Below are positions 3,311-57,789 of a stretch of DNA of 64,000 nt, in pieces. The stretch covers positions 17,610,001 through 17,674,000 of the forward strand of contig CM059432.1 of assembly GCA_030390025.1 (NCBI GenBank), given 5' to 3'. Origin of the DNA: Squalus acanthias. Lineage: Eukaryota. The stretch's first letter is position 1. Each line of letters starts with the position of its first letter. Position numbers and translations under genes: made by a program. Below the pieces are notes generated by a model. That model was given only the letters and a program-made list of their open reading frames with translations, searched no databases and was not told where the DNA came from.

Positions 3311-3630
3311 ACAGATGCTGCCTGACCTGCCGAGTGTTTCCAGCATTTTCTGTTTTTATTTCAGATTTCCAGCATCTGCAGTATTTTGCTTTTGTATAAT
3401 TTAGTGTTTAATTCACTGCCACTTCTCTTCTAAGAATGCCCACCTTGAAGAAGTTCTGCTCTTCTCTCCGACGGGATTTCTCCAGCTTTTTTCCAGTTCT
3501 GACGAAGGGTCATCGACCTGCAACGTTAACTCTGTTTCTCTCTCCACAGGTGCTGCCTGACCCGCTGAGTGTTTCCAGCATTTTCTGTTTTTATTTCAGA
3601 TTTCCAGCATCCGCAGTATTTTGCTTTTGT
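3311..3630 (+). mobile_element. Penelope-like element (family B), partial tandem of pseudo-LTR plus ORF start
   Basis: Direct repeat ACAG(A/G)TGCTGCCTGACC...TTTGCTTTTGTAT at 3311 and 3546. It matches the terminus of the GIY-YIG PLE at 45100-45215. Near-TSD ATCCT(A/G)CAG on both sides. Confidence 0.8.
3495..3531 (+). ncRNA. Hammerhead ribozyme motif, family B, core mutated (GAAA>GCAA), probably inactive
   Basis: agtt CTGACGA a GGGTC atc GACCT GCAA CGTT aact. Confidence 0.6.
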
Positions 3631-3745
3631 ATCCTGCAGTATTAGTGGGTCACAGTAAATGATGTTCATTTGCATATTGCTAACTCAACACTGAGGTCCT
3701 TCAAATAAGCGTGTTCGGCTGAAATCTTCCTTCATCAATGACGTA

Positions 3746-6027: not shown

Positions 6028-6446
6028 AAAGTTTCACTTGTCACAACTGACCATTTTTTCTTGACTGCCTCATCTTCCTCGCTTTTCTCTCTAACTTTAG
6101 TGGTGTTCTGCAGAATGGATCTTAACCTTCCACAGTTTCTCAGTTAAAAGCTGTGATCTGAAACTCCTCATGTGGGCTGTGTGAAAAGCATGTGGAACCA
6201 CTTCACCAGAGCAATATGTTGGATCAGCAGTGGCAATAAGGTTGTCCACCGGGCAATTCTGATTATTGCAATACAGTTTTTTCAGTATTTATGAGTCTTT
6301 TATGATTCTGAGCTTTCACTTGAAGGCTAATGATTAGTTTCCTTATTTCATAGACAGTAAAAGAGAAAATTTACATCGCCTGGTATAATGATCTAAAATG
6401 AGAAGTCGCACAACACCAGGTTATAGTCCAACAGATTTATTTAATT

Positions 6447-6485
6447 TTACAAGCTTTCGGAGCAGTTCGCTCCTTCGTCAGGTAA
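6447..6485 (-). ncRNA. Minimal type I hammerhead ribozyme, family A
   Basis: Minus strand: ttac CTGACGA a GGAGC gaact GCTCC GAAA GCTT gtaa. Confidence 0.8.
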
Positions 6486-6809
6486 GTTTAGCAGTGAGAG
6501 AATCTCCCAGAATTCACAATTTAAACACAGACAAAATATATTCTCTGCTTTCTTGCATCTCTGCAGGTACTTGATGTCTGTGTCAATATGCGCGATCTTC
6601 TTGGCGATTCTCTCCACTTTGAGCCGGCAGTTTGCGGTGTCAATAGAGGTCATGATGTGGAGATGCCGGCGTTGGACTGGGGTGGACAAAAATGAGAAGT
6701 CGCACAACACCAGGTTATAGTCCAACAGATTTATTTAATTTTACAAGCTTTCGGAGCATTTTGTCTGTGTTTAAATTGTGAATTCTGGGAGATTCTCTCA
6801 CTGCTAAAC

Positions 6810-6848
6810 TTACCTGACGAAGGAGCGAACTGCTCCGAAAGCTTGTAA
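6810..6848 (+). ncRNA. Minimal type I hammerhead ribozyme, family A
   Basis: Stem I TTAC/GTAA, core CTGACGA, stem II GGAGC/GCTCC, GAAA, palindromic AGCT stem III. Predicted cleavage after 6844. Confidence 0.8.
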
Positions 6849-6994
6849 AATTAAATAAATCTGTTGGACTATAACCTGGTGTTGTGCGACTTCTCATTTT
6901 TGTCCACCCCAGTCCAACACCGGCATCTCCATATAATGATCTAGTTTTTGTTCACCTCAGACGTTCTCGAATTTTTTTTTGTTATATGGATCTT

Positions 6995-9505: not shown

Positions 9506-9640
9506 GGTTCTGAAGAAAGGTCATCGACCTGAAACGTTAACTCTCTCTCTCCACAGGTGCTGCCTGACCTGCTGAGTATTTCCAGCATTTTCTGTTTATA
9601 TTTCAGATTTCCAGCACCCGCAGTATTTTGCTTTTGTATT
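9506..9640 (+). mobile_element. PLE family B pseudo-LTR fragment with hammerhead at 9506-9542
   Basis: ggtt CTGAAGA a AGGTC atc GACCT GAAA CGTT aact, then the same downstream sequence as 3532-3630. Confidence 0.75.
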
Positions 9641-13313: not shown

Positions 13314-15135
13314 ATAAGAACATAAGAAATAGGAGCAGGAGTAGGCCAATTGGCCCCTCGAGCCTGCTCCGCCATTCAATAAGATCATGGCTGATCTGAT
13401 CCTAACTGCCAATCTACTATCACAGAACCATCTCCTGAACCTAACAGAATTGGACACACGAAATAGGAGCAGGATCAGGCTACACGGCCCCTGGGCCCGC
13501 TACGCTACCCACAGGGCCATGACCGATCCGAACCTAGACTCATGTCCAAATTCCTGCCCGCTCCCCGTAACCCTTAATTCCCTTTACTTCTAGGAAACTG
13601 TCTATTTCTGTTTTAAATTTATGTAATGATGTAGCTTCTACAGCTTTTTGGGGCAGCATATTCCATGGACCTACCACCCTCTGAGTGAAGTAGTTCCTTC
13701 TCATCTCAGTTTTGAAAGAGCAGCCCCTTATTCTAAGACTATGCCCCCTAGTTCTAGTTTCACCCATCATCGGGAACATCCTCCCCGCATCCACCCGATC
13801 CAACCCCTTCACAATCTTATATGTTTCAATAAGATCGCCTCTCATTCTTCTGAACTCCAATGAGTAGAGTCCCAATCTACCCAACCTCTCCTCATATTTC
13901 CATCCCCTCATCCCCGGGATTAACCGAGTGAACCTTCTTTGTACTGACTCGAGAGCAAGTATGTCTTTTCTTAAGTATGGAAACCAAAACTGTATGCAAG
14001 TATTCCAGGTGCGGTCTCACCAATACCTTGTACAACTGAAGCAATACCTCCCTATTTTTATATTCTATCCCCCTAGCAATGAAAGCCAACATTCCATTGG
14101 CCTTCTTAATCACTTGCTGCACCTGCATACTAACCTTTTGAGTTTCGTGCACCAGGACCCCCAGATCCCTTTGTACTTCAGTACTTTCCAGTTTCTTGCC
14201 ATTAAGATAATAACTTGCTCTACTATTTTTCCTGCCAAAGTGCATAACCTCACACTTTCCAGTATTGTATTCCATCTGCCAAATCTCTGCCCACTTACTT
14301 AGCCTGTCTATGTCCCCTTGCAGATTTTTTATGTCCTCCTCACTCACTACTTTCCCTCCCATCTTAGTATCATCTGCAAACTTTGATATGTTACACTCGG
14401 TCCCCTCCTCCAAATCGTTAATATAGATTGTAAAGAGTTGGGGACCCAGCACTGACCCCTGCGGAACACCACTAGTTACTGATTGCCAGTCTGAGAATGA
14501 ACCATTTATCCCAACTCTCTGCCTTCTGTTAGATAGCCAATCCTCTATCCATGCCAGAATATTACCCCCAATCCCGTGATTTTTTATCTTAAGCAATAAT
14601 CTTTTGTGTGGCACCTTGTCAAATGCCTTTTGGAAGTCTAAATACACCACATCCACTGGTTCCCCTTTATCCACCCTGTATGTTACTTCCTCAAAGAACT
14701 CCAGCAAATTTGTCAAACATGACTTCCCCTTCATAAAACCATGCTGACTTTGTCCTATTAAATTATGATTCTCCAAATGTCCCGTTACTGTCTCCTTAAT
14801 AATGGACTCCAAAATTTTACCTACCACAGATGTTAGGCTAATCCGGTCTAAAGTTTCCAGCCTTCTGTCTACTGCCCTTTTTAAATAAGGGTGTTACATT
14901 AGCATTTTTCCAGTCTGCCGGGATCTTTGCTGAGTCCAGGGAGTTTTGGAAAATTATTACCAATGCATCCACAATCCCTACCGCCACTTCCCTCAAGACC
15001 CTAGGATGTAAGCCATCAGGTCCAGGTGATTTATCCACCTTAAGTCCCATTATTTTACCGAGTACCACTTCCTTAGTGATTTTGATCGTGTTTAGCTCCT
15101 CCCCCCCTATAGCCCCCTGTTTGTCCAGTGTTGGG
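13314..15135 (-). mobile_element. CR1 LINE, reverse transcriptase to 3' end, frameshifted
   Basis: ORFs 14838-15068 (KSPGPDGLHPRVL), 13892-14827 (YLDFQKAFDKV, GVPQGSVLGP, FADD) and 13540-13911. The 3' UTR is present twice. Confidence 0.95.
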
Positions 15136-16707: not shown

Positions 16708-17930
16708 AACATAGAAACACAGAAGATAGGAGCAGGAGTAGGCCATTCGGCCCCTCGATCCTGTTCCGTCATTTAATGAGATCATGGTTGATCATCCAAA
16801 TTCAGTACCCTGTCCCTGCTTTCTCCCCATATCCCTTGATCACTTTAGCCTTAAGAAATATATCTAACTCCTTCTTGAATATATTTAATGAGTTGGCCTC
16901 AACTGCCTTCTGTGGTAGAGAATTCCACAGGTTCACCACTCTCTGGGTGAAGAAATTCCTCCTCATCTCAGTCCTAAATGGCTTACCCCTTATCCTTAGA
17001 CTGTGACTCCTGCTTTCTGGGCTCCCCCGCCATCGGGAACATCTTTCCTGCATCTAGTCTGTCTAGTCCTGTTAGAATTTTATAAGTTTCAATGAGATCC
17101 CCTCTCATTCTTCTAAACTTTAGCAAATATAAGCCTAATCGACCCAATCTCTCTTCATATGTCATTCCTGCCATCCCAGGTATCAGTCTGGTGAATCTTC
17201 GCTGCACTCCCTCCATGGCAAGAACATCCTTCCTCAGATAAGGCGATTAAAACTGCACACAATACTCAAGGTGTGGTCTCACCAAGGCCCTGTACAACTG
17301 CAGCAAGACATCCTTGCTCCTGTACTCGAATCCTCTCGCTATGAAAGCCAACATACCATTTGCCTTCTTAACCGCCTGCTGCACCTGCATGCTTACCTTC
17401 AGCGACTGGTGCACAAGGACACCCAGGTCTCGTTGCACTTCCCCTTTTCCCAATCTATTGCCGTTCAGATAATAATCTGCCTTCCTGTTTTTGCCACCGA
17501 AGTGGATAACCTCGCATTTATCCACATTATACTGCATCTGCCATGCATCTGCCCAATCATCCAACCTGTCCAAATCATACTGGAGTTTCTCTGCATCCTC
17601 CTCACAGCACACACGCCCACCCAGCTTTGTGTCATCTGCAAACTTGGAAATATTACATCTAGTTCCCTCGTCTAGATCATTAATATATATTGTGAATAGC
17701 TGGGGTCCTAGCACCGATCCCTGCGGTACCCCACTAGTCACTGCCTGCCACTCGGAAAAAGACCCGTTTATTCCAACTCTTTGCTTCCTGTCTGCCAACC
17801 AGTTTTCTATCCAAGTCAATACCTTACCCCCAATCCCATGTGCTTTAACTTTGCACGCTAATCTCTTATGCGGGACCTTATCGAAAGCCTTCTGAAAGTC
17901 AAATGCACCACATCCACTGGTTCTCCCTTA
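16708..17930 (-). mobile_element. CR1 LINE RT and 3' fragment
   Basis: ORFs 17247-17819 (GVPQGSVLGP, FADD, RPHLEYCVQF), 16983-17216 and 16802-17053, then tail. Confidence 0.95.
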
Positions 17931-23587: not shown

Positions 23588-24473
23588 GGTCAGTGGTGAG
23601 GTGATTAAACAAGTGAAGTTCAGAATATTAATGGGTGTTTCCAAAAGCTATGCCTTAGCCATCCATCCCACATCTTGATAATGAATGATAATAACCCCCC
23701 CCAGTCTATAATATATTAAATTGGTTATGTATGTTGCACACTCCTTACTGGAGTTGGTTATTCCGGTCTGTAGGACTTGCAGTCTAACATTTCTTGCCTT
23801 AAGCAAAAGCAAAAATCTCAACTCAATTGAATTACCTCAAACAGTCACACCAGAGGAAATTTGTCTCGTTAACCTTGAATGAGAGACACATTTATAGCCA
23901 CATATTTGGATGATTTGCTGGAAATATTGACAAGAGGAAGCAAATTATAATTTTTTATGGAAGGAATGAATTGAAGAGTCAGAAGGTAACTAAAATATTT
24001 TTTTAAAAGCACCTCAAAAGAGAAAAGATGGGTTAATATTTTGGCTAGAGACCCTTCATTAGAAATCCTAGCATTTTCTATTTTTATTTCATATTTCCAA
24101 TATTTGCAGTTTTTACATTTTCATCTCAGAAGATGCACATCAGTGAAGTAAGTAATAGGTCATGATGACTAACGGTATTGTGACTCATCCAATGCATGAA
24201 CATCTTTAATTACACTTCAATGCTTGACTAAACCAGTCTACATCCCTGATTGACTGCTGCACCTGCAGCATAAAAGTGGACCTGTAACATGGCTGACTTT
24301 CAGATGCCAGAACTTTGTGCTTTGAGGTTTTGGAACACATTTTGCAGGTCTGTTGAGCTTGTAAGTGTTTAAGCTGAGATCCATATGCACTGTGACCTCC
24401 TTGGAAAACCCTCTCCCCACATTGACTGGGCGCTTATAACATCTATTCCTCAACTGAGATATATACCAGTGGA

Positions 24474-25695
24474 ATGGGAACCATTTATACCCTCTCATCC
24501 TGGTCCTCAGAATCGGAGGAAGAGCAGCCGCGGCAGCAGCAAAACCAGGCACAACAGCAGCAGCAACAACAGGAGCGCCAACCTTCTCCTCAGCCACCTG
24601 ATGATGCACAGGGCAGAGGGCGTCAGCGCAGGGCTGCACCGCGCCGCAGGAGATACCCCCAACACAGGGTTTACAGGTCGAGGATGAGCTTCCTCAACAT
24701 GAGTGAGCAGCAATGCCAAAGGAGGCTCAGACTTTCGCGAGAGGTAGTCGCTGACATCTGCACAATGCTGCACCAACACCTAGAGCCCAGAGGAGCGGGT
24801 GGACACTCCTTACCAGTGGCTGTCAAAGTCACCACCGCACTCAACTTCTTTGCTTCAGGGTCCTTCCAGGGATCAGCAGCAGACATCAGCAGCATCTCCA
24901 ACACTTGCATCATGCAGGTCCACTGATGCCCTCTTTGCAAAGTCGCTCAATTACATCCACTTCTCCACGGATGAAGCAAGTGTAACCGTGCATGCGGTTG
25001 GCTTTGCAAATATGACAGGCTTCCCAAGGGTGCAGGGCGTCGTAGACTGCACACATGTGGCCATTAGGGCACTCCATCACAACCCAGCTGTATTTGTGAA
25101 CCGCAAGAGCTTCCACTCACTTAACGTCCAGCTGGTGTGTAACCACAGGAAGAACATTATGCATGTTTGCGCTAAGTTCCCTGGCAGTTGCCATGACTGG
25201 TTCATCCTGCGGCAGTCTACTGTGCCTCAGCTGTTCAATCCGCCAACCCAACTCTCTGGATGTCTACTTGGAGACAAGGGCTATCCCCTGAAGACGTGGC
25301 GAATGACACCGATGAGGAGGCCATCAAACGAAGCTGAGGAGCGTGACAATGTGAGCCACATTTCCACCAGAAGCATCATAGAGCAAACCATCGGCTTGCT
25401 CAAAATGCGATTCAGATGCCTTGACAGATCTGGTGGAGCCCTACAGTGCTCACCAGCCAGGGTCTCCAGAATCATCGTGGTCTGCTGTGCCCTGCACAAC
25501 ATCGCACAGCAGCGTGGCTTAGCGCTGCCTGAGGAACAAGTGGCTCAGCGCACAGCCTCCTCCTCCTCAGAGGAGGAGGAGGAGGAAGCAGATGAGGAAG
25601 ACCTTGCGGAGGCGGATGTGCCAGTTCCACCAGCATGTGAGCACATTGCTGGCCTTGAGGCAAGCGATGCACTAATCCATGCCAGATTCGCGTAA
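24474..25695 (+). pseudogene. Harbinger (HARBI1-like) DDE transposase, one frameshift near 24900
   Basis: ORFs 24474-24926 and 24799-25695 carry [36 protein letters not shown] and CCALHN. Confidence 0.92.
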
Positions 25696-39532: not shown

Positions 39533-40296
39533 TGGCCCTGAAATTCGCCTCTCCGGCTTGCCGCGGGTGCAAGGATCGCGCGCGCACTTACCTACCGCGC
39601 CTGCCGTTGACCTCTGGGCCCACGGGGACTTCAACTCCTGGGCCTGCTCCAAGTGCCGGCGCGCAGTGCTTGCGTGTCCCAGGGGCGTAGTTAGTGCGAT
39701 GCGTCCCCTGGGATCACGTGGGCCATGGAGAGCCAATGGCAGCAGACCATCTTTCATTCATAGATTTGACAGGAGACCTGTCAAATCTGTGAATTGAAAT
39801 CGGCCCCAAAAGAACAGCTAAACTTAAAATAAATTTTAAAAAAAACATCACATTTATAAAATAACTATAAGTTAAATAAATTAACTACATTAAACAAAAA
39901 TTTAAATTTTTGAAAAAATTTAAAATACTTTTTAACAGTGCTAAAAATAAACTTACTTTCTTTAAAGTATCTAAAAAAGATAAACCTGTTGAAATTTTTT
40001 AAAATTATAATTAATTAGCCACTTACCTTGTTGAAAACGGGTCTTGCGCCTCCTTTTTAAAAGTGCAGGTTCTTCAATACTTACCCTCCCGGAGAAACCT
40101 GAAAAAAAACCTAAGTTTGCTGCGTGCGCGCAGCCTCTCCCGCGCATGCAGTTCACCTCTGAACCGCTCCCTTCATGAGACCAGAAGTTCCGGTTTCCCG
40201 CGCATGCGCAGTGCATGCAGGAAACCGGCACTGCAGGAGGCCTTACGGGTGAGTACACAGTGCGTACTCACCCGGCAAGTGCCGAAGTTTTGGCCC
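39533..40296. mobile_element. Structured ~760-bp MITE, copy 1
   Basis: TIR GGCCCTGAAATTCG / CGAAGTTTTGGCCC. GC-rich arms with an AT-rich centre; highly similar to 48290-49050. Confidence 0.85.
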
Positions 40297-40643
40297 AGTA
40301 TGTATTGGATAAGAAAGGTGTGTCGGGGTGGGGTGGGGGAAATGAGGGGGCAATGCCAGTTTAATCATGTATCTCATCTGGAGATGCTAATGCTCTGATC
40401 TCATGATACCACAACATTTGCCTTTATATTTTGTTCATCCTGTATAATAAATGAGAAAAAGTCAAGGGCAATCTGATTTATCCTTCAGTATTCCAACTCA
40501 CCCAGTCAAAATGTATTTTGAACTTTCTTAAGATTTTTGACTATCTTACTTGATAGATTATTCAAACAGTTTCTCGTCCTCTCAGTAAAATATGTTTTTT
40601 CAATATTACATTAAATTTCCTTTCACTCATTTGATTTAAATTG

Positions 40644-42985
40644 TGAAATAACAACAGAAAATGCTGGAAATGCTCAGCAGGTCAGGCACCATCCGTGGCG
40701 AGAGAAACAGAGTTAACGTTTCAGGTCGAGGACCCTTCGTCAGAACTGGAAAAAGTTAGAGATGTAACAGTTTTTAAGCAAGTGCAGGGGCAGGGAAAGG
40801 GAGGAGGGGAGGAAAGAACAAAAGGGAAGGTCTGTGATGGGATGGAAGGTAGGAGAGATTAAAAGACAAAAAGGATGATGGTGCAGGGCAAAAGGAGATG
40901 GTAATGGGACAAGTTAATAAACAAAAGATGAGTCTAGATGAGGTGTAAATGGCAATGGCAGAATCATCAACAGCTGCCATGTGAGGAAAAAATATAGTTG
41001 GAACAGTGTAAGAGGCCATGGACAGAGAGATCAGAGTGGGAGTGTAGCGGAGAATTAAAGTGATAGACGACCGTAAGCTCGGGATCACGCTTACGGAATA
41101 AACGGAGGTGTTCCGCAAAGTGGTCACCCAATCTGCGTTTGGTCTCCCCAATGTAGAGGAGACTGCAGCTAATACAGTATACTAAATTGTAAGAAGTACA
41201 AGTAAATCGCTGTTTCACCTAGAAGGAGTGTTTGGGGCCCTGGACAGTGGGAAGGGAGGAGGTAAAAGGGCAGGTGTTGCATCACCTGTGCTTGCACGGG
41301 AAGGTGCTGTGGGAAGGGGAAGGGATGTTGGGGGTGATAGAGGAGTGGACCAGGGTGTCGCGGAGGGAGCGGTCCCTTTGGAATGCTGAAAGGGGGGTGG
41401 AGGGGAAGATATGTTTGGTGGTGGGATCACGCTGGAGGTGGCGGAAATGGTGGAGGATGATCCGTTGAATGTGGAGGCTGGTGGGTTGAAAGGTGAGGAC
41501 AAGGGGAACCCTATCGTGGTTCTGGGAAGGAGGGGAAGTGTTGAGAGCAGAAGTGCGGGAAATGGAATGGACACGGTCAAGGGCCGTGTCAACCACGGTA
41601 GAGGGGAATGCTCAGTTGAGGAAAAAGGAAGACATATCGGAAGCACTAGTATGGAAGGTGGCATCGTCAGAACAGATGTGGCCGAAATGGAGAAACTGGG
41701 TGAATGGAATAGAGTCCTTACAGGAAGTGGGGTGGGAGGAAGTGTAGTCCAGGTAGCTGTGGGAGTCAGTGGGCTTATAGTGGATGTTGGTCAATAGACT
41801 GTCCCCATAAATGGAGATAGAGAAGTCGAGGAAGGGAAGGGAAGAGTCGGAGATGGACCATGTGAAGGTGAGTGAAGGGTGGAAATTGGAAGCAAAGTGA
41901 ATGAAATTTTCTATTTCAGGCCGAGAGCAGGAAACGGCACCAATACAATCATCAATGTACCGGAAAAAGAGGTGAGGGAGGGGACCTGAGTAGGACTGGA
42001 ACAAAGATTGTTCCACATATTCCACGAAAAGGCAGGCATAGCTAGGGCCCATGCGGGTTCCCATAGCAACACCGTTAATTTAGAGGAAGTGAGTGGAGTC
42101 AAAGGAGAAGTTGTTCAATTTGAGAACAAGTTCAGCCAGGCGGAGGAGGGTAGTGGTGGATAGGGACTGGTTGGACCTCTGTTCAAGGAAGAAGCGGAGC
42201 GCCCTCAGGCCATCCTGGTGGGGGATGGAGGTGTAGAGGGAGTGGACGTCCATAGTAAAGAGGCGGCGGTTGGGGCCAGGAAACTGGAAACTGTTAAAGT
42301 GGCGGTGGGCGTCGAAAGAGTCACAAATGTAGATGGGAAGAGTCTAGACAAGGGGAGAAAAAATAGAGTCGAGATAGGAAGTTCTGTGGAGCAAGAACAG
42401 GATTAACAATGGGTCTACCAGGGCAGTCCTGTTTGTGGATCTTGGGAATGAGGTAGAAGTGGGTTGTGTGGGGCAGGGACAGGGAGGAGGGGAGGAAAGA
42501 ACAAAGGGAAGGTCTGTGATAGGCTGGAAGGCAGGAGAGATTAAAAGACAAAAGGGATGATGGTGCGAGGCAAAAGGAGATGGTAATGGGACAAGTTAAG
42601 AAATAAAAGATGACTCTAGATGAAGTGTAAATGGCGATGGCAGAATGATCGACAGCTGCCATGTGAGAGAGAAAAAAGGGAAAAAAATATAGGGGCCGAG
42701 GTTATGATCTGAAATTGTTGAACTCTCTGTTGAGTCCAGAAGGCTGTAAAGTGCCTCATCGAAAGATGAGGTGTTGTTCCTCGAGCTTACGTTGTACTTC
42801 GTTGAAACAGTGTAAGAGGCCTAGGACGGAAAGATCAGAGTGGGAGTGGAGCAGAGAATTAAAGTGACAGGCGACCGGAAGCTCGGGGTCACGCTTACGG
42901 ACTGAACAGAGATGTCCGCAAAGTGGTCACCCAATCTGCGTTTGGTCTCCCCAATGTAGAGGAGACCGCATCCTGAGCAGTGAAT
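40644..42985 (-). mobile_element. Penelope-like element family B, minus arm (RT, GIY-YIG, pseudo-LTR; partial tandem)
   Basis: MGTRMGPSYACLF, FFRYIDD, YKPTDSHSYL, FTCTSYNLVYCISC...YIGETKRRL. A second GIY-YIG/3' segment lies at ~42450-42985. Confidence 0.9.
40711..40747 (-). ncRNA. Minimal type I hammerhead ribozyme, family B
   Basis: Minus strand: agtt CTGACGA a GGGTC ctc GACCT GAAA CGTT aact. Confidence 0.75.
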
Positions 42986-43941
42986 GGCAGCCAACCTCAT
43001 AGTCCCCCAATCCCGCACAGCCCGCTTCTACCTCCTTCCCAAGATCCACAAACAGGACTGCTCTTGTAGACCCATCGTTTCAGCCTGTTCTTGCCCCACG
43101 GAACTGATTTCTTCCTATCTCAACTCTATTTTTTCTCACCCTTGTCCAATCTCTTCCCAACTACATTTGCAACTTTTTCGACGCCCTCTGCCACTTTAAC
43201 AGTTTCCTGGCCCCAACCGTCTCCTCTTCACTATGGACGTCCAATCCCTCTACACCTCCATCCCCCACCAGGATGGCCTGAGGGCGCTCTGCTTCTTCCT
43301 TGAACAGAGGCCCAACCAGTCCCCATCCATCACCACCCTCCTCCGCCTGGCTGAACTTGTTCTCACATTGAACAACTTCTCCTTTGACTCCACTCACTTC
43401 CTCCAAATTTCATTCACTTTGCTTCCAATTTCCACCCCTCCCTTAGCTTCACATGGTCCATCTCCGACACTTCCCTTCCCTTCCTCGACTTCTCTGTCTC
43501 CATTTCTGAGAATAGGCTATCGACCAACATCCACTATAAGCCCACTGACTCCCACAGCTTCCTGGACTACAGTTCCTCCCACCCCGCTTCCTGTAAGGAC
43601 TCTATTCCATTCTCCCAGTTTCTCTATCTCGGCCGCATCTGTTCTAACGATGCCACCTTCCATACTAGTGCTTCCGATATGTCTTTTTACCTCAACCGAG
43701 GATTCCCCTCTACCATGGTTGACATGGCCCTCGACCGTGTCAGTTCCATTTCCCGCACTCTTGCTCTCACCTCTTCCCCCCCCTCCCAGAACCACGATAG
43801 GGTTTCCCTTGTCCTCACCTTTCAACCCACCAGCCTCCACATTCAACGGATCATCCTGCGTCATTTCCACCACCTCCAGCGTGATCCCACCACCAAACAT
43901 ATCTTCCCCTCCACCCCTTTCAGCATTCCGAAGGGACCGCT

Positions 43942-44387
43942 CAACAACAATAACTTGTATTTATATAGCGCCTTTAACGTAGTAAAATGTCCCAAGGCGC
44001 AGCACAGGAGTATTTTAAGACAAAAAATTTGACACTGAGCTACATAAGGATAAATTCGGGCAGGTGACCAAAAGCTTGGCAAAGAGGTAGGTTTTAAGGA
44101 GCATCTTAAAGGAGGAAAGAGAGGTAGTGAGGCGGAGAGGTTTAGGCAGGGAATTCCAGTGTTTATGGCCTAGGCAACAGAAGGCACGGCCACCAAAGAT
44201 TGAGCGATTATAATCAGGGATGCTCAAGAGGGCAGAATTAGAGGAGCGCAGATATCTCGGGGGGGGGGGGGGGGGGGGGTGGGGTGGGGTTGCGGGCTGA
44301 AGGAGATTACAGAGATAGGAAGGGGCGAGGCCATGGAGGGAATTGAAAACAAGGATGAGAATTTTGAAATCGAGGCGCTGCTTAACC
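43942..44387 (-). mobile_element. L2-type LINE 3' fragment inserted in the PLE
   Basis: Close reverse complement of 23165-23587. Confidence 0.85.
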
Positions 44388-45100
44388 TCGACACCCTGGT
44401 CCACTCCTCTATCACCCCCAACATCCCTTCCCCTTCCCACGACACCTTCCCGTGCAAGCGCAGGAGATGCAACACCTGCCCTTTTACCTCCTCGTTTCCC
44501 ACTGTCCAGGGCCCCAAACACTCCTTTCAGGTGAAGCAGCGATTTACTTGTACTTCTTACAATTTAATATTCACTATTCGCTGCTCACGATTCGGCCTCC
44601 TCTACATTGGGGAGACCAAACGCAGATTGGGTGACCGCTTTGCGGAACACCTCCGTTCAGTCCGCAAGCATGACCCCGAGCTTCCGGTCGCCTGTCACTT
44701 TAATTCTCCACTCTGTCCATGGCCTCTTACACTGGTCCAACGAAGCTCAAGGAACAGCATCTCATCTTTCGATTAGGCACTTTACAGCCTTCTGAACACA
44801 ACATCGAGTTCAACAATTTCAGACTATAACCTCTGCCCCTTTATTTTTTTTCCGTTTTTTCTCTCACATGGCAGCTGTTGGTGAATCTGCCATCGCCATT
44901 TACACCTCCTCTAGAGTCATCTTTTGTTTCCTAACTTGTCCCATTACCATCTCCTTTTGCCTTGCACCATCATCCCTTTTGTCTTTTAATCTCTCCTGCC
45001 TTCCAGCCTATCACAGACCTTCCCTTTGTTCTTTCTTCCCCTCCTCCCTTTCCCTGCCCCTACTCTTGCTTAAAAATCTGTTGCTTCTCTAACCTTTTCC

Positions 45101-45137
45101 AGTTCTGACGAAGGGTCATCGACCCGAAACGTTAACT
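45101..45137 (+). ncRNA. Minimal type I hammerhead ribozyme, family B
   Basis: Stem I AGTT/AACT, CTGACGA, stem II GGGTC/GACCC, GAAA, palindromic ACGT stem III. Confidence 0.8.
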
Positions 45138-45229
45138 CTGTTTCTCTCTCCACAGATGCTGCCTGACCTGCTGAGTGTTTCCAGCATGTTCTGTTGTTAT
45201 TTCAGATTTCCAGCTGGCCTCTTGTTTCA

Positions 45230-46950: not shown

Positions 46951-48289
46951 AATGTATCTGTATAAAATGCACGCAACTCCTCATCATTCAAAACATCTTT
47001 TTTTTTAATTCTTCATGAAAATAGCATTGAGTCAAAGGTAATTAATTCACACTACAATCCAGGACACAACGTCCACAGTACAACACCACCCCGATGCTCG
47101 TTAGTCCTTTTTACCAATTACCAACTTCTAGCGATATTACTAACACATTAATGGCAGCATAGTTCAAACAAAACCGTTTCTAATACTGCAGCAGGTTTAC
47201 ATTGGCACAGCACGGGTTAAGCTTTTAATCTTCCTTCTTTCCCCAAAGTCGGCAAGGAGCTAAGACATGGCGGTAATGACTGAATAATTCCAAAAAAGTT
47301 TCCTCCCACTTTTTTAAAATATCAAAAAATTTGGAATTCTTTGTGCAAATTAAATTGGCTGCTTCAGAATTAAAAGTAGAACAAACAAATTAAAAATACA
47401 ATTTAAAATTCTAACCAATTTAATCAATTAGATTTTCGGCAAAATAACTCGTGGTCTGTTTCCTTAAATGATCGTGCGGCGCTGTTTTCAAGCTACAATC
47501 ACTGCAGAGAACACTGATCATTCACCAGTCCTGCAACAAGAAGTTGACCATTTTCTTGAAAAGTAATATTGCATATTACTTTAATATTTGTATGAACAGC
47601 TCTCGCATTAATGAAAAATTTAATTTCTAGAGCAATCATCTGATATGGTTGTCATTTAAGGACTGGACAGTCTGGTTTTTGAGAAGATTGGGGAGGGGGG
47701 TGAAACTAATTTGGCAAGGGGAGGGACACCTGGATGAAGCATTAGAGAGGAGAAACAAGGGGCCCAAAGGACTGGGAGAGACGAACAACATTAGAATAAA
47801 GAGTGGTTCAGAAACAAGAGGGATCAGACATGGGGGAAAATGTGAGGCAGACCAGCATGGGTTTGGAGCGCATGTGCGTAAATGCACAGAGCGGGGTAAA
47901 TAAGGTTGGTGAGCTGCAGGCACAAGTCGCCACATGGAACTATGATATAGTGGCAATAACGGAGACCTGGCTCAAAAAAGGGGAGGAATGGGCACTTAAT
48001 ATTCCTGGCTACAGGGTATTCAGGAAATACAGGGAAGGAAAAAAAAAGAGTGGGGCGGAGCAGTATTGATCAAAGAGAGCACTAGAACGGGATGATGGAC
48101 TTGAGGGTTCAAAGACAGATTCTCTTTGGTGAAGAATTAAGAAACAATAGAGGAGCTATTACACTGCTGGGTTTATACTGTAGGCCACCAAATAGTGGGA
48201 AGGAGCTAGAAGAGCAAATTTGCAAGCATAGTACAGAAAGATGCAAGAACTTTGGAGTAGCGATAATGGGGGACTTCAATTATCCTAAT

Positions 48290-49050
48290 GGCCCTGAAAT
48301 TCGCCTCTGCGGCTTGCCGCGGGGATAAGGATCGCGCGCGCACTTACCTACTGCGCCTGCCGTTGACCTCTGGGCCCACGGGAACTTCAGCTCCTGGGCC
48401 TGCTCCAAGTGCCGGCACGCAGTGCTTGCGTGTCCCAGGGGCGTAGTTAGTGCGATGCATCCCCTGGGATCACGTGGGCCATGGAGAGCCAATGGCAGCA
48501 GACCATCTTTCATTCATAGATTTGACAGGAGACCTGTCAAATCTATGAATTGAAATCAGCCCCAAAAGAACAGCTAAACTTAAAATAAATTTTAAAAAAC
48601 CATCACATTTATAAAATAACTAGAAGTTAAATAAATTAATTACTTTAAACAAAAATTAAAATTTTTGAAAAAATTAAAAAACTTTTTAACAGTGCTAAAA
48701 ATAAACTTACCTTTCTTTAAAGTATCTAAAAAAGATAAACCTGTTGAAATTTTTTTAAATTATAATTAATTAACCACTTACCTTGTTGAAAACGGGTCCT
48801 GCGCCTCCTTTTTAAAAGCGCAGGTTCTTCAATACTTACCCTCCCGTAGAAACCTGAAAAAAACCTTAAGTTTGCTGCGTGCGCGCAGCCTCTACCGCGC
48901 ACGCGGTTCACCTAAGAACTGCCCCCTTCACCAGACCGGAAGTTCCGGTTTCCCGCGCATGCGCAGTGCATGCAGGAAACCGGCACTTCAGGACGCCTTA
49001 CGGGTGAGTACACAGTGCGTACTCACCCGGCAAGTGCCGAATTTCTGGGC
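48290..49050. mobile_element. Structured ~760-bp MITE, copy 2
   Basis: TIR GGCCCTGAAATTCG / CGAATTTCTGGGCC with 3-bp TSD AAT inside the CR1 reading frame. Confidence 0.9.
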
Positions 49051-49624
49051 CAATATAGATTGGGAAAATAACAGTGTAAAGGGCAAAGAGTGGGAGGAAC
49101 TCCTGAAATGTGTACAAGGTAACTTTCTTGATCAGTATGTTTCCAGCCCAACGAAGAAGGAAGCAGTGCTGGATCTAGTTCTGGGGAATGAAGTGGGGCA
49201 AGTGGAGCGTGATTCACGGGGGAGCATTTGGGAAGCAGTAAACACATTGGCCCAGAAATTAAACATGGATGGTTCCCGCGGGGGTAAGGATTCCCCGCGA
49301 TATCGCACTCTGCGCCTACCTTTTTGTTTGGGGCCCACACGAACTTTAGTTTCAGAGCCTCTTCTTATTGCAACCGCGCAGTGTGTGCGTATCCCAGAGG
49401 CGCAATTAGTTCGTGCGCGCTCTGGGATCACGTGATTCAGTTAGAGCCAATGGCAGCACACCATCTTTCATTCATAGTTTTGACGGCAAGAGCTGTCAAA
49501 GCTATGAATACTACAAACCCCCAAAAGAACAGCTAAACCTCAATTAAATTAAAAAAAAGCCATCACATTAATAAAATAAGAAGTCGCACAACACCAGGTT
49601 ATAGTCCAACAGATTTATTTAATT

Positions 49625-49663
49625 TTACAAGCTTTCGAAGCAGTTCGCTCCTTCGTCAGGTAA
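49625..49663 (-). ncRNA. Minimal type I hammerhead ribozyme, family A
   Basis: As 6447-6485, but stem II is GGAGC/GCTTC (one G.U pair). Confidence 0.75.
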
Positions 49664-49943
49664 GTTAGCAATGAGAGAATCTCCCAGAATTCACAATTTA
49701 AACCCAGACAAAATCTATTCACATTATTCCCTACAACAAAGAGCACAGCCAAGACAATGAGATGTGTCCCAGGCTAACAAGAACACAAATTGACAGGATA
49801 TGCAGCCAGCAGGTGGTTTGACACGTTGGACCCCCTGGGACACATCTCATTGTCTTGGCTGTGCTCTTTGTTGTAGGGAATAATGTGAATAGATTTTGTC
49901 TGGGTTTAAATTGTGAATTCTGGGAGATTCTCTCATTGCTAAC

Positions 49944-49982
49944 TTACCTGACGAAGGAGCGAACTGCTTCGAAAGCTTGTAA
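49944..49982 (+). ncRNA. Minimal type I hammerhead ribozyme, family A
   Basis: ttac CTGACGA a GGAGC gaact GCTTC GAAA GCTT gtaa. Confidence 0.75.
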
Positions 49983-50517
49983 AATTAAATAAATCTGTTG
50001 GACTATAACCTGGTGTTGTGCGACTTCTCATTTTTGTCCACCCCAGTCCAACGCCGGCATCTCCACATCATGACCTCTATTAATAAAATAAGTATAGTTA
50101 AATAAATTAACCACTTTAAACAAAAAATTAAATTTTTGAAAAAATTTTAAATCTTTTTAAAAGTTATAAAAATAAACTTACCTTTCTTTAAAGTCTCTAA
50201 AAAAGATAAACCTGTTGAAAAAAATTTAAAATAACACTTAATTAACTACTTACCTTGTTAAAAGGGGGTCCTATGCCTGCTTTCTTTATGTGTAAAATCT
50301 TCACCACTTACCTGCGCGTTCAAAGCTGAAAAAAAAACTAAGTGCACTGCGTGCGCACAACCTGTAGCGCGCATGCGGTTCACTTAGGAACCGCCCCCTT
50401 TGCAATTCACGAAGTGCCGGTTTCCCGCGCATGCAGGAAACCGGCAATTCGGGATCTAATACGCGAGAGTACACAGTGCGTACTCTCGCGTATTAGGTTT
50501 AATTTTCGGGCCATTAT

Positions 50518-57239: not shown

Positions 57240-57789
57240 ATTATACCTGAAATGTGAACTTTTCTCTCTTTTTCAGATGTTGATTGAGCTGCTGTGTATT
57301 TCCAACACTTTCTGATTTTATTTCAGATTTGTGCGGGGGGGATGGGGGGGAGGATTTTAACCGAACCCATCAGGATGAAGCGGACTAGTGTGCGCTTTTT
57401 CAGGAGGGAGTGATGACAGGAGCGAACAATGTCTGAGGAAAGGCAACAGTTGAAGTTATCAGTGAGAATTGGGCCGACGACAGGCAGTTGAGTGGTTAAG
57501 AGCTGGGTTAGGGGTTGGGGGTTGAGAGGGCAAAGTTGAAGGCATCAACCTCCTAGTTGTAGAAGGTGATGAGTCAGATTAGGGCAGGATGGAATACCGT
57601 GGAGAAGTTCCAGAGTGTTGTGGGGTCAGGGCTAAGGTGAGGACAGGGTTGGTGCAGACAACTGATTTAGGAGAGTTAATAGGGTAGGTGGAGGCTGAGA
57701 TAGTTGAATGGATAATCTCAATTTTGGAGATGACAGAAAGCAAATTAACTCTGTGCACTGGACATCAGAGGTGTGAATGGAAGGAAGGG

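What the first reader, a model, noticed from the sequence alone, without database searches (positions are those of the whole stretch)
6396..6931. Retrozyme-like PLE insertion: 294-nt hammerhead-to-hammerhead unit plus an inverted ribozyme copy
Seen: a 12-bp TSD, intact hammerheads on both strands (6447-6485 minus, 6810-6848 plus), and a half hammerhead at 6741-6757 exactly 294 bp from the first. Established: Penelope-like elements carry minimal type I hammerheads with palindromic stem III thought to act as dimers, and metazoan non-LTR retrozymes are short hammerhead-bearing tandem units that give circular RNAs. Inference: this family may generate a ~294-nt self-cleaving, possibly circular, non-autonomous RNA.
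Basis: partly seen in the sequence, partly recalled or inferred. Interest (0 to 1): 0.7.

Follow-up and report, generated by a model that had tools for sequence, protein, structure and literature searches.

The report
Gutted shark Penelope insertion, not retrozyme
This 536-base insertion is a young, broken copy of a common shark jumping gene (a Penelope-like element) laid out in the textbook way, and the 294-base spacing between its ribozyme motifs likely comes from a rare or one-off splice of the gene's start onto its end rather than from a family of circular RNAs.

Summary
In detail: 12-bp TSD, two complete minimal hammerhead motifs on opposite strands, and a half motif 294 nt from the first. 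The retrozyme reading is poorly supported. The insert has the published anatomy of an endonuclease-bearing Penelope-like element (PLE): an inverted pLTR with a 31-nt tail, a truncated direct pLTR, 37 codons of a shark PLE ORF, a joint at 6543/6544, and a terminal pLTR. A second copy in the window lacks the joint. No listed contig bridges it in three DNA and three presumed-RNA contig sets, where both sides run on into normal element sequence; rare joints can be dropped from such contigs. Only one complete hammerhead lies on the unit's strand, and a 143-bp perfect inverted repeat is predicted to bury both hammerheads in any read-through RNA. The joint is most likely private or rare, made by a reverse-transcriptase jump (about 0.45) or a later deletion (about 0.27). 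One lead: the ORF start is strongly complementary to the region upstream of the hammerhead, and the joint lies just outside that predicted helix; conservation is untested. The scan noted many similar gutted copies with other spacings in this and other shark genomes.

The parts
6384..6395 (.). Left target-site duplication, 12 bp, AT-rich; last base shared with the element
6396..6543 (-). Terminal pLTR of the left arm: 58-nt region upstream of the hammerhead (6486-6543), hammerhead, and 5'-UTR part ending at the tail-less terminus
   Evidence: family termini at 6395/6399 seen as 92 and 82 loose ends in X1
6447..6485 (-). Complete minimal type I hammerhead motif; predicted cut between 6451 and 6450
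   Evidence: mirror of 6810-6848; activity untested
6543..6544 (-). Joint between ORF position +110 and the region upstream of the hammerhead; defines the 294-nt spacing
   Evidence: contig pieces stop at 6543 or start at 6544 and run on into other element sequence; absent from copy 2
6544..6653 (-). Start of the PLE ORF (ATG at 6653; the 37th codon ends at 6543); the frame runs on through the joint to a stop after 68 codons
   Evidence: 70-84% identical to seven shark-type PLE N-termini
6654..6744 (-). 5'-UTR of the direct pLTR, from the predicted cut site to the start codon
6741..6758 (-). Half hammerhead: 3' strand of stem II, GAAA, palindrome, cut site (6745/6744) and 3' strand of stem I; no CUGACGA core
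6758..6758 (.). Inversion junction between the two arms, one shared base
6758..6900 (+). Inverted, 5'-truncated pLTR (right arm); starts 6 nt downstream of the position equivalent to the joint
6810..6848 (+). Complete minimal type I hammerhead motif; predicted cut after 6844
6901..6931 (+). 31-nt one-sided tail, ending just before the start codon; one CpG-type mismatch to the left-arm copy
   Evidence: second family terminus at 6646-6654 as loose ends in X5, X6, X7
6932..6943 (.). Right target-site duplication; resembles the element sequence around the start codon (8 of 11 bases)
6493..6538 (-). Arm of a predicted long helix (upstream of the hammerhead), partner of 6568-6618
   Evidence: predicted only
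6568..6618 (-). Arm of the predicted long helix inside the ORF start, partner of 6493-6538
   Evidence: predicted only

Best explanation
This is a single young insertion of an abundant shark Penelope-like retrotransposon, bounded by a 12-bp target duplication, in which two oppositely oriented element ends were likely copied from the two cut target strands, and whose 294-nt repeat spacing likely comes from a private or rare joint between the start of the ORF and the element's 3' region. Shown: the two arms, the one-sided 31-nt tail, the ORF remnant, the joint. Inferred, by analogy with the Anolis PAc protein: an intact family member's enzyme cut both strands of an AT-rich site and primed one cDNA at the tail-less start site (left) and one at the tail site beside the start codon (right). 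The right cDNA stopped after 174 nt. The left cDNA passed the hammerhead without a break, reached the end of the region upstream of it, most likely jumped to ORF position +110 (a predicted helix could hold the two places close), recopied ORF start, UTR and cut site, and stopped in stem II; the ends were joined at one shared base. Class identity about 0.97. Origin of the joint: jump during this insertion about 0.45; later loss of about 3 kb from a full-length copy at this locus about 0.27. The locus is probably dead and is not expected to release a 294-nt RNA.
For: Anatomy equals the published unit: two direct pLTRs, adjacent inverted pLTR, 31-bp tail, TSD (PMC3846280 passages; PMC8557442 passages). 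PAc cuts and extends both strands, starts at two internal sites that define the tail, and uses uncleaved RNA (PMC11167929). Two family termini about 35-40 nt apart appear as loose ends. The peptide links to shark proteins, to an 882-aa RT protein (40% over 30 aa; via P0003 35%; RVT_1) and to P0015 (72% to P0003 over the shared part), which shows a cysteine linker and a GIY-YIG-type end by eye. Copy 2 has the same divergent layout without the joint. In one search none of the 32 listed pieces (of 188 pieces; the longest are kept) exceeds 39 nt of the 72-nt stretch; the main X1 path identical to 6544-6579 (depth 1232 against 6.83 on the flank) runs on with other letters. In X7 and X6 the depth over 6547-6559 is fully explained by contigs that stop matching at 6544. 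Read-through RNA: stem I and II pair probabilities 0.000 on both strands; forcing the hammerhead fold costs 50 kcal/mol.
Against: No genome was available, so the joint could not be counted directly. The contig sets drop rare variants, X5 was read to 55%, and the joint was not recovered even in X1/X3, whose sample carries the left flank junction, so the test cannot see a single copy and may miss a small subfamily. One X1 contig ends 11 nt past the joint at 6554 and could be a second carrier or a loose alignment. The unit folded as a circle is more stable than 199 of 200 shuffles (z -2.84). The joint is blunt against the main ORF allele but has 3 shared bases against a minor allele (one X5 contig), which fits repair-type deletion as well. 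RNA status of X6, X7 and X11 is a guess of the tool.
Confidence: 0.72

Rival explanations
1. The insert was copied from a pre-existing, low-copy mini-PLE (pLTR, 110 nt of ORF, pLTR) that is mobilised in trans as a linear RNA by the autonomous family.
For: The unit keeps hammerhead, both start sites and ORF-start sequence; PAc needed the first 172 ORF nucleotides for priming. Non-autonomous PLE derivatives are known. A subfamily of tens of copies could be lost from the contigs. One contig ends 11 nt past the joint.
Against: No bridging contig in six runs; copy 2 lacks the joint; a look-up by sequence among the scan's notes found 0 look-alike windows (weak); other notes give different spacings (96, 128, 338, 368, 407 nt in this genome).
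Confidence: 0.2
2. One reading: a 294-nt RNA cut at two hammerheads is ligated into a circle and reverse-transcribed 1.2 times round, as proposed for retrozymes.
For: The left arm is 1.23 units long and passes the cut site twice without a scar; size, TSD length and low GC fit metazoan retrozymes; circle fold z -2.84; Cervera and De la Pena proposed circular PLE templates.
Against: It needs a source with two complete hammerheads around the joint, and none was seen. The motif is of the minimal PLE type, which showed no monomer and low dimer activity; 8 of 9 Xenopus dimers did not cleave; PAc inserted from uncut RNA and no reads ended at its cut site. Paired fraction of the circle 0.54 against 0.57 in shuffles. 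The palindrome here is 6 nt and would pair A14 with U17 in a dimer, which likely disfavours the active fold (inference). Joint not bridged in three presumed-RNA contig sets.
Confidence: 0.05
3. The inner joints are an assembly error inside a high-copy repeat.
Against: A perfect 12-bp TSD, canonical anatomy, and a second copy with the same layout.
Confidence: 0.03

Closest known systems
Insertion units of EN+ Penelope-like elements, notably Adineta vaga Pen2a_Av and the internally deleted Pen2 derivative on scaffold 304 (Arkhipova et al. 2013, PMC3846280; passages read)
   Same: Direct pLTRs around an ORF remnant, adjacent inverted pLTR, 31-bp tail on one inverted arm, TSD, internal deletion.
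   Different: Shark, Neptune-type family; 12-bp rather than 9-10-bp TSD; the direct upstream pLTR is cut back to 14 nt above the cut site; the joint is blunt against the main allele, whereas the Pen2 deletion is described as microhomology-mediated.
[quoted passage not shown]
   Same: Full core, extra nucleotide between 9 and 10.1, G10.1-C11.1 pair, short helix I, palindrome in place of helix III; opposite-strand pairs 100-700 bp apart are described there as likely truncated PLEs.
   Different: CUU triplet with a 6-nt palindrome; helix II of 5 bp; activity not tested here.
Anolis Poseidon PAc in vitro (Frangieh et al. 2024, PMC11167929; main text read)
   Same: AT-rich target, two start sites that define the tail, both strands extended, uncut RNA used.
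   Different: Other clade; PAc starts about 111-118 nt inside the ORF, while the termini here lie about 36 nt before and next to the start codon.
Vertebrate non-LTR retrozymes as PLE derivatives (Li, Clavereau, Pollet, bioRxiv 10.64898/2026.07.22.740005, main text read; Cervera and de la Pena 2020, PMC7229834, one part and passages)
   Same: Unit size 170-400 nt (chondrichthyan mean 363 bp), pLTR origin, long TSD, type I hammerhead.
   Different: Only one complete hammerhead on the unit's strand, no array, no evidence of a family or of circular RNA; minimal rather than canonical motif.

Membership tests
EN+ Penelope-like element insertion | pLTR carrying a hammerhead, in partial tandem | tested here: met
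   73-nt direct repeat at spacing 294 with motif and half motif
EN+ Penelope-like element insertion | Adjacent inverted 5'-truncated pLTR | tested here: met
   6758-6900 is the reverse complement of 6395-6537, 0 of 143 mismatches
EN+ Penelope-like element insertion | 30-40-bp tail on one end | tested here: met
   31 nt at 6901-6931; two family termini in contigs
EN+ Penelope-like element insertion | TSD at an AT-rich target | tested here: met
   12 bp here, 14 bp at copy 2
EN+ Penelope-like element insertion | ORF homologous to PLE RT plus GIY-YIG proteins | tested here: met
   37-aa remnant links to P0003, P0013, P0015; the copy itself has no RT or endonuclease and is defective
Neptune clade of PLEs | [quoted passage not shown] | tested here: inconclusive
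   A C-x4-C-x2-C motif is visible by eye in relatives P0013 and P0015; the region is missing from this copy, Nematis shares the motif, and no tree was built
PLE minimal hammerhead | Conserved core, extra nucleotide at 9/10.1, G10.1-C11.1, palindrome instead of helix III | tested here: met
   against the list
PLE minimal hammerhead | Self-cleavage as a dimer or with protein help | not testable with these tools
   needs in vitro assay
Metazoan non-LTR retrozyme | [quoted passage not shown] 2026) | tested here: not met
   one complete and one half motif on the minus strand
Metazoan non-LTR retrozyme | Unit repeated as a family across the genome | tested here: inconclusive
   no bridging contig in six runs and absent from copy 2: not a major form; a low-copy family is not excluded
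Metazoan non-LTR retrozyme | Canonical type I hammerhead (6-bp helix I, 4-bp helix II, loop-loop contacts) | tested here: not met
   4-bp helix I and 5-bp helix II, minimal type; no Rfam hammerhead match
Metazoan non-LTR retrozyme | Unit size 170-400 nt and TSD longer than 4 bp | tested here: met
   294 nt, 12 bp
Metazoan non-LTR retrozyme | Highly self-paired circle | tested here: inconclusive
   energy z -2.84, but 54% paired against 57% in shuffles
Metazoan non-LTR retrozyme | [quoted passage not shown] | tested here: inconclusive
   joint not bridged in presumed-RNA runs X6, X7, X11, which do hold family sequence; contigs cannot show circles or absence

The most novel reading that the evidence does not exclude
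In this shark PLE family a long RNA helix pairs the region upstream of the hammerhead with the start of the ORF and clamps the hammerhead and both reverse-transcription start sites into one domain of about 300 nt. Reverse transcriptase that reaches the base of the helix jumps across it and recopies the domain, so retrozyme-sized repeat units of about 290-340 nt are born repeatedly without ribozyme cleavage or a circle; this locus is a snapshot of such a birth.
Probability: 0.2. Interest if true: 0.45.

Novelty: already known. Interest (0 to 1): 0.17.

Why it matters
As most likely read, it matters little: one more dead PLE insertion of a described layout. If the helix-guided jump were true, it would give a concrete route from autonomous PLEs to retrozyme-sized monomers, a step that Li et al. 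2026 propose but leave open, and would point to the RNA structure that a Neptune-type protein recognises; both are testable in the existing in vitro PLE assay.

Tried and rejected
Whole-genome count of the joint: no genome held. Rfam: only miRNA-hairpin matches below their gathering scores, rejected as an effect of the inverted repeat. The 'goes back 294' joint at 6688 to 6395 in all four runs was rejected as evidence for tandem units: it is the ordinary continuity of the family's 5'-UTR, which any pLTR-with-tail contig gives. Summed contig depth was not used as a copy number. Metagenome scans for relatives gave nothing (0 matches; 122 pattern hits, 0 confirmed), so covariation of the predicted helix could not be tested. 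An unphased look at known variants was mixed: of five that fall on predicted pairs, two keep a G-U pair (6609, 6494) and three break a pair (6579, 6493, 6527). Pfam found nothing on the peptide or P0001-P0003. P0008 was dropped as an unrelated repeat protein. The arm comparison for copy 2 was out of register and was not used; one search was used instead. Literature searches (listings only) showed no paper on a pLTR-ORF helix or on this shark family; the preprint's supplementary tables, which list chondrichthyan retrozyme families, could not be seen and may include it.

Full report
Observation. The insert spans 6396-6931 between two identical 12-bp copies of TATAATGATCTA. It has two divergent arms. 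The left arm reads on the minus strand from 6758 to 6396; the right arm reads on the plus strand from 6758 to 6931; they share one base at 6758. Arms 6395-6537 and 6758-6900 are perfect reverse complements over 143 nt, and 6658-6758 matches 6831-6931 at 100 of 101 positions, the exception being a CpG-type change, so the insertion is young. Complete hammerhead motifs lie at 6810-6848 (plus) and 6447-6485 (minus); a half motif without the CUGACGA core lies at 6741-6758, 294 nt from the minus-strand one. The predicted cut after CUU at 6844 fits standard hammerhead numbering (my knowledge). Rfam did not recognise the motif. It fits the list of traits for PLE minimal hammerheads in PMC4209133 (abstract, results, discussion read).

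The minus strand holds an ORF start at 6653 whose first 37 residues are 70-84% identical to seven database proteins (an eighth hit, P0008, is unrelated). The named ones come from Rhincodon typus, Mustelus asterias and Heptranchias perlo. P0003 leads to longer proteins with an RT domain; the peptide itself aligns with the N-terminus of the 882-aa P0013 (40% over 30 aa). P0013 and P0015 show, by eye, the DKG motif, a cysteine linker and a GIY-YIG-type end, which points to an endonuclease-bearing PLE of Neptune type (linker described in PMC8557442; no tree built). The right arm runs 31 nt beyond the point where the left arm ends: this is the one-sided tail. In public contigs the family ends at two places, 6395-6399 and 6646-6654, that is about 35-40 nt apart in element coordinates. 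A second copy at 49567-50092 has a 14-bp TSD, the same divergent arms and a one-sided tail, but no ORF piece, and its sequence upstream of the hammerhead continues past the position of the joint.

Is the 294-nt unit a family? No genome was held, so I laid contigs of public runs on the stretch. Of 22 runs listed I laid six. Over 6300-6689 the pLTR parts were very deep and the ORF piece far shallower; X1 held a contig of depth 6.83 across the left flank junction, with one flank difference at 6377. In presumed-RNA runs X7 and X6 the depth over 6547-6559 (78 and 229.2) equals the sum of contigs that stop matching at 6544 (72.3 plus 5.7; 205.3 plus 24), so none bridges the joint. On the 72-nt stretch centred on the joint, 63, 72, 41 and 10 records were laid in X1, X3, X5 and X11; the 32 pieces listed, which the tool picks as the longest, cover at most 36-39 nt, all on one side, and loose ends show the 3' region and the ORF each continuing with their own sequence. 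The main X1 path identical to 6544-6579 has depth 1232 and runs on with other letters. Limits: the tool warns that contigs drop rare variants; X5 was read to 55% and X3 to 97%; X1 and X3 are one sample; the joint was not seen even though that sample carries the insertion's left edge; and one X1 contig ends at 6554, 11 nt past the joint. So the joint is not a major form of the family; one copy or a few tens of copies cannot be told apart. The 'goes back 294' joint is not evidence for tandem units (see Tried and rejected).

Could this locus make the RNA? On the unit's strand there is one complete core and one bare cut site. In the double-hammerhead arrangement each core cuts the partner's site (and my knowledge), so a single transcript could be cut once, not twice (inference). 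In read-through RNA of either strand the 143-bp inverted repeat is predicted to take all stem I and II pairs to probability 0.000, and forcing the hammerhead fold costs 50 kcal/mol. In the left arm alone the stems do form (0.79-1.0), so a template RNA without the inverted arm could fold the motif. Published activity of such motifs is low: none as monomer and low as dimer; 1 of 9 Xenopus dimers cleaved; PAc's hammerhead cleaved only with protein, and uncut RNA was the main substrate.

Mechanism. The layout matches Pen2a_Av and the deleted Pen2 derivative of Adineta vaga (PMC3846280, 12 of 13 passages) and the general scheme in PMC8557442 (12 of 15 passages). PAc cuts and extends both target strands and starts at two internal sites that define the tail (PMC11167929, parts 1-2 of 4). 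I infer priming from both cut strands: the left cDNA at the tail-less site, the right one beside the start codon, where the target resembles the RNA at 8 of 11 bases. For the joint I favour a reverse-transcriptase jump during this event (about 0.45): it is blunt against the main ORF allele, it is rare, and the right arm stops 6 nt from the same position. A later deletion from a full-length copy (about 0.27) also fits: a minor allele offers 3 shared bases, the break lies at the inner end of the inverted repeat, and a sample with the insertion lacked the joint. A low-copy master (0.2), a circle (0.05) and an assembly error (0.03) remain.

One lead. Folding the unit as a circle gave -77.7 kcal/mol, better than 199 of 200 shuffles. 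Much of this comes from a helix between 6493-6538 and 6568-6618. As a duplex it scores -43.9 kcal/mol, with 0 of 1000 shuffles and 1 of 2274 window stretches as good; the antisense duplex scores -39.7, also 0 of 1000. The segments were chosen after seeing the fold, both strands score, and unphased variants are mixed (two keep a pair, three break one), so an old inverted duplication without RNA function is as plausible as a selected helix. In the natural order (upstream region, hammerhead, UTR, ORF start) the helix would enclose the hammerhead and both start sites, and the joint lies 5 nt beyond one arm and 24 nt beyond the other. Protein P0006 from Mustelus appears to read from a slightly longer ORF start into a hammerhead-like stretch, which suggests an independent joint nearby (inferred from protein only). 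Two metagenome scans for DNA to test covariation found nothing. Searches (listings only) showed no paper on such a helix.

Comparison and verdict. It works like, and is a member of, the EN+ PLE insertion units; Neptune membership is probable but untested by tree. It fails two tested retrozyme features (two complete units; canonical motif), meets size and TSD, and is inconclusive for family status and circular RNA (definitions from bioRxiv 10.64898/2026.07.22.740005, parts 1-3 of 5, and PMC7229834, part 2 of 6 and 12 of 13 passages; the preprint's supplements were not visible). Earlier scan notes, unchecked, describe like insertions in this genome with spacings of 96, 128, 338, 368 and 407 nt (813 notes fitted the first look-up, 8 shown); they are not independent support, but differing spacings fit private joints. 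Already known; interest 0.17.

Noticed in passing
window 49567-50092: Second copy of the same PLE family, about 96% identical: 14-bp TSD, divergent inverted arms of about 200 nt with hammerheads at 49659 (minus) and 49948 (plus), tail of about 45 nt on one arm, no ORF piece. It interrupts a repeat (49273-50485) with copies at 39533-40308 and 48289-49063.
   Followed up: partly
window 3488-3632, 9507-9639, 40644-42677, 43012-45214, 57245-57330: A second hammerhead-bearing repeat family with an ACGU palindrome (motif hits at 9510+, 45105+, 40743-), linked to RT-like frames at 41215-44032 that match P0002 at 33-42%; probably another PLE family.
   Followed up: no
window 6434-6495, runs X6 and X7: Both presumed-RNA runs, from two organisms, hold a contig in which the hammerhead region is replaced by 10 letters (depth 183 and 332); not listed for DNA runs X1 and X5. 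Possibly an old transcribed copy that lost the motif.
   Followed up: no
window 6479-6487 (+) and its mirror in the right arm: The strand opposite the hammerhead's stem I and core reads CAG/GTAAGT, a perfect splice-donor consensus (consensus recalled); copies could act as cryptic donors in host transcripts.
   Followed up: no
proteins P0006, P0009/P0010, P0011: Annotated shark proteins contain this PLE's ORF start: a Mustelus protein that seems to run from the ORF start into a hammerhead-like stretch, and Heptranchias models fused to a SKINT-like gene and a chitinase; gene-model artefacts or exonisation.
   Followed up: partly
window 24426-25695, 13540-14893, 17247-17927: Frames that look like a Harbinger-type transposase and CR1-type LINE reverse transcriptases (family names recalled from motifs, not searched).
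   Followed up: no
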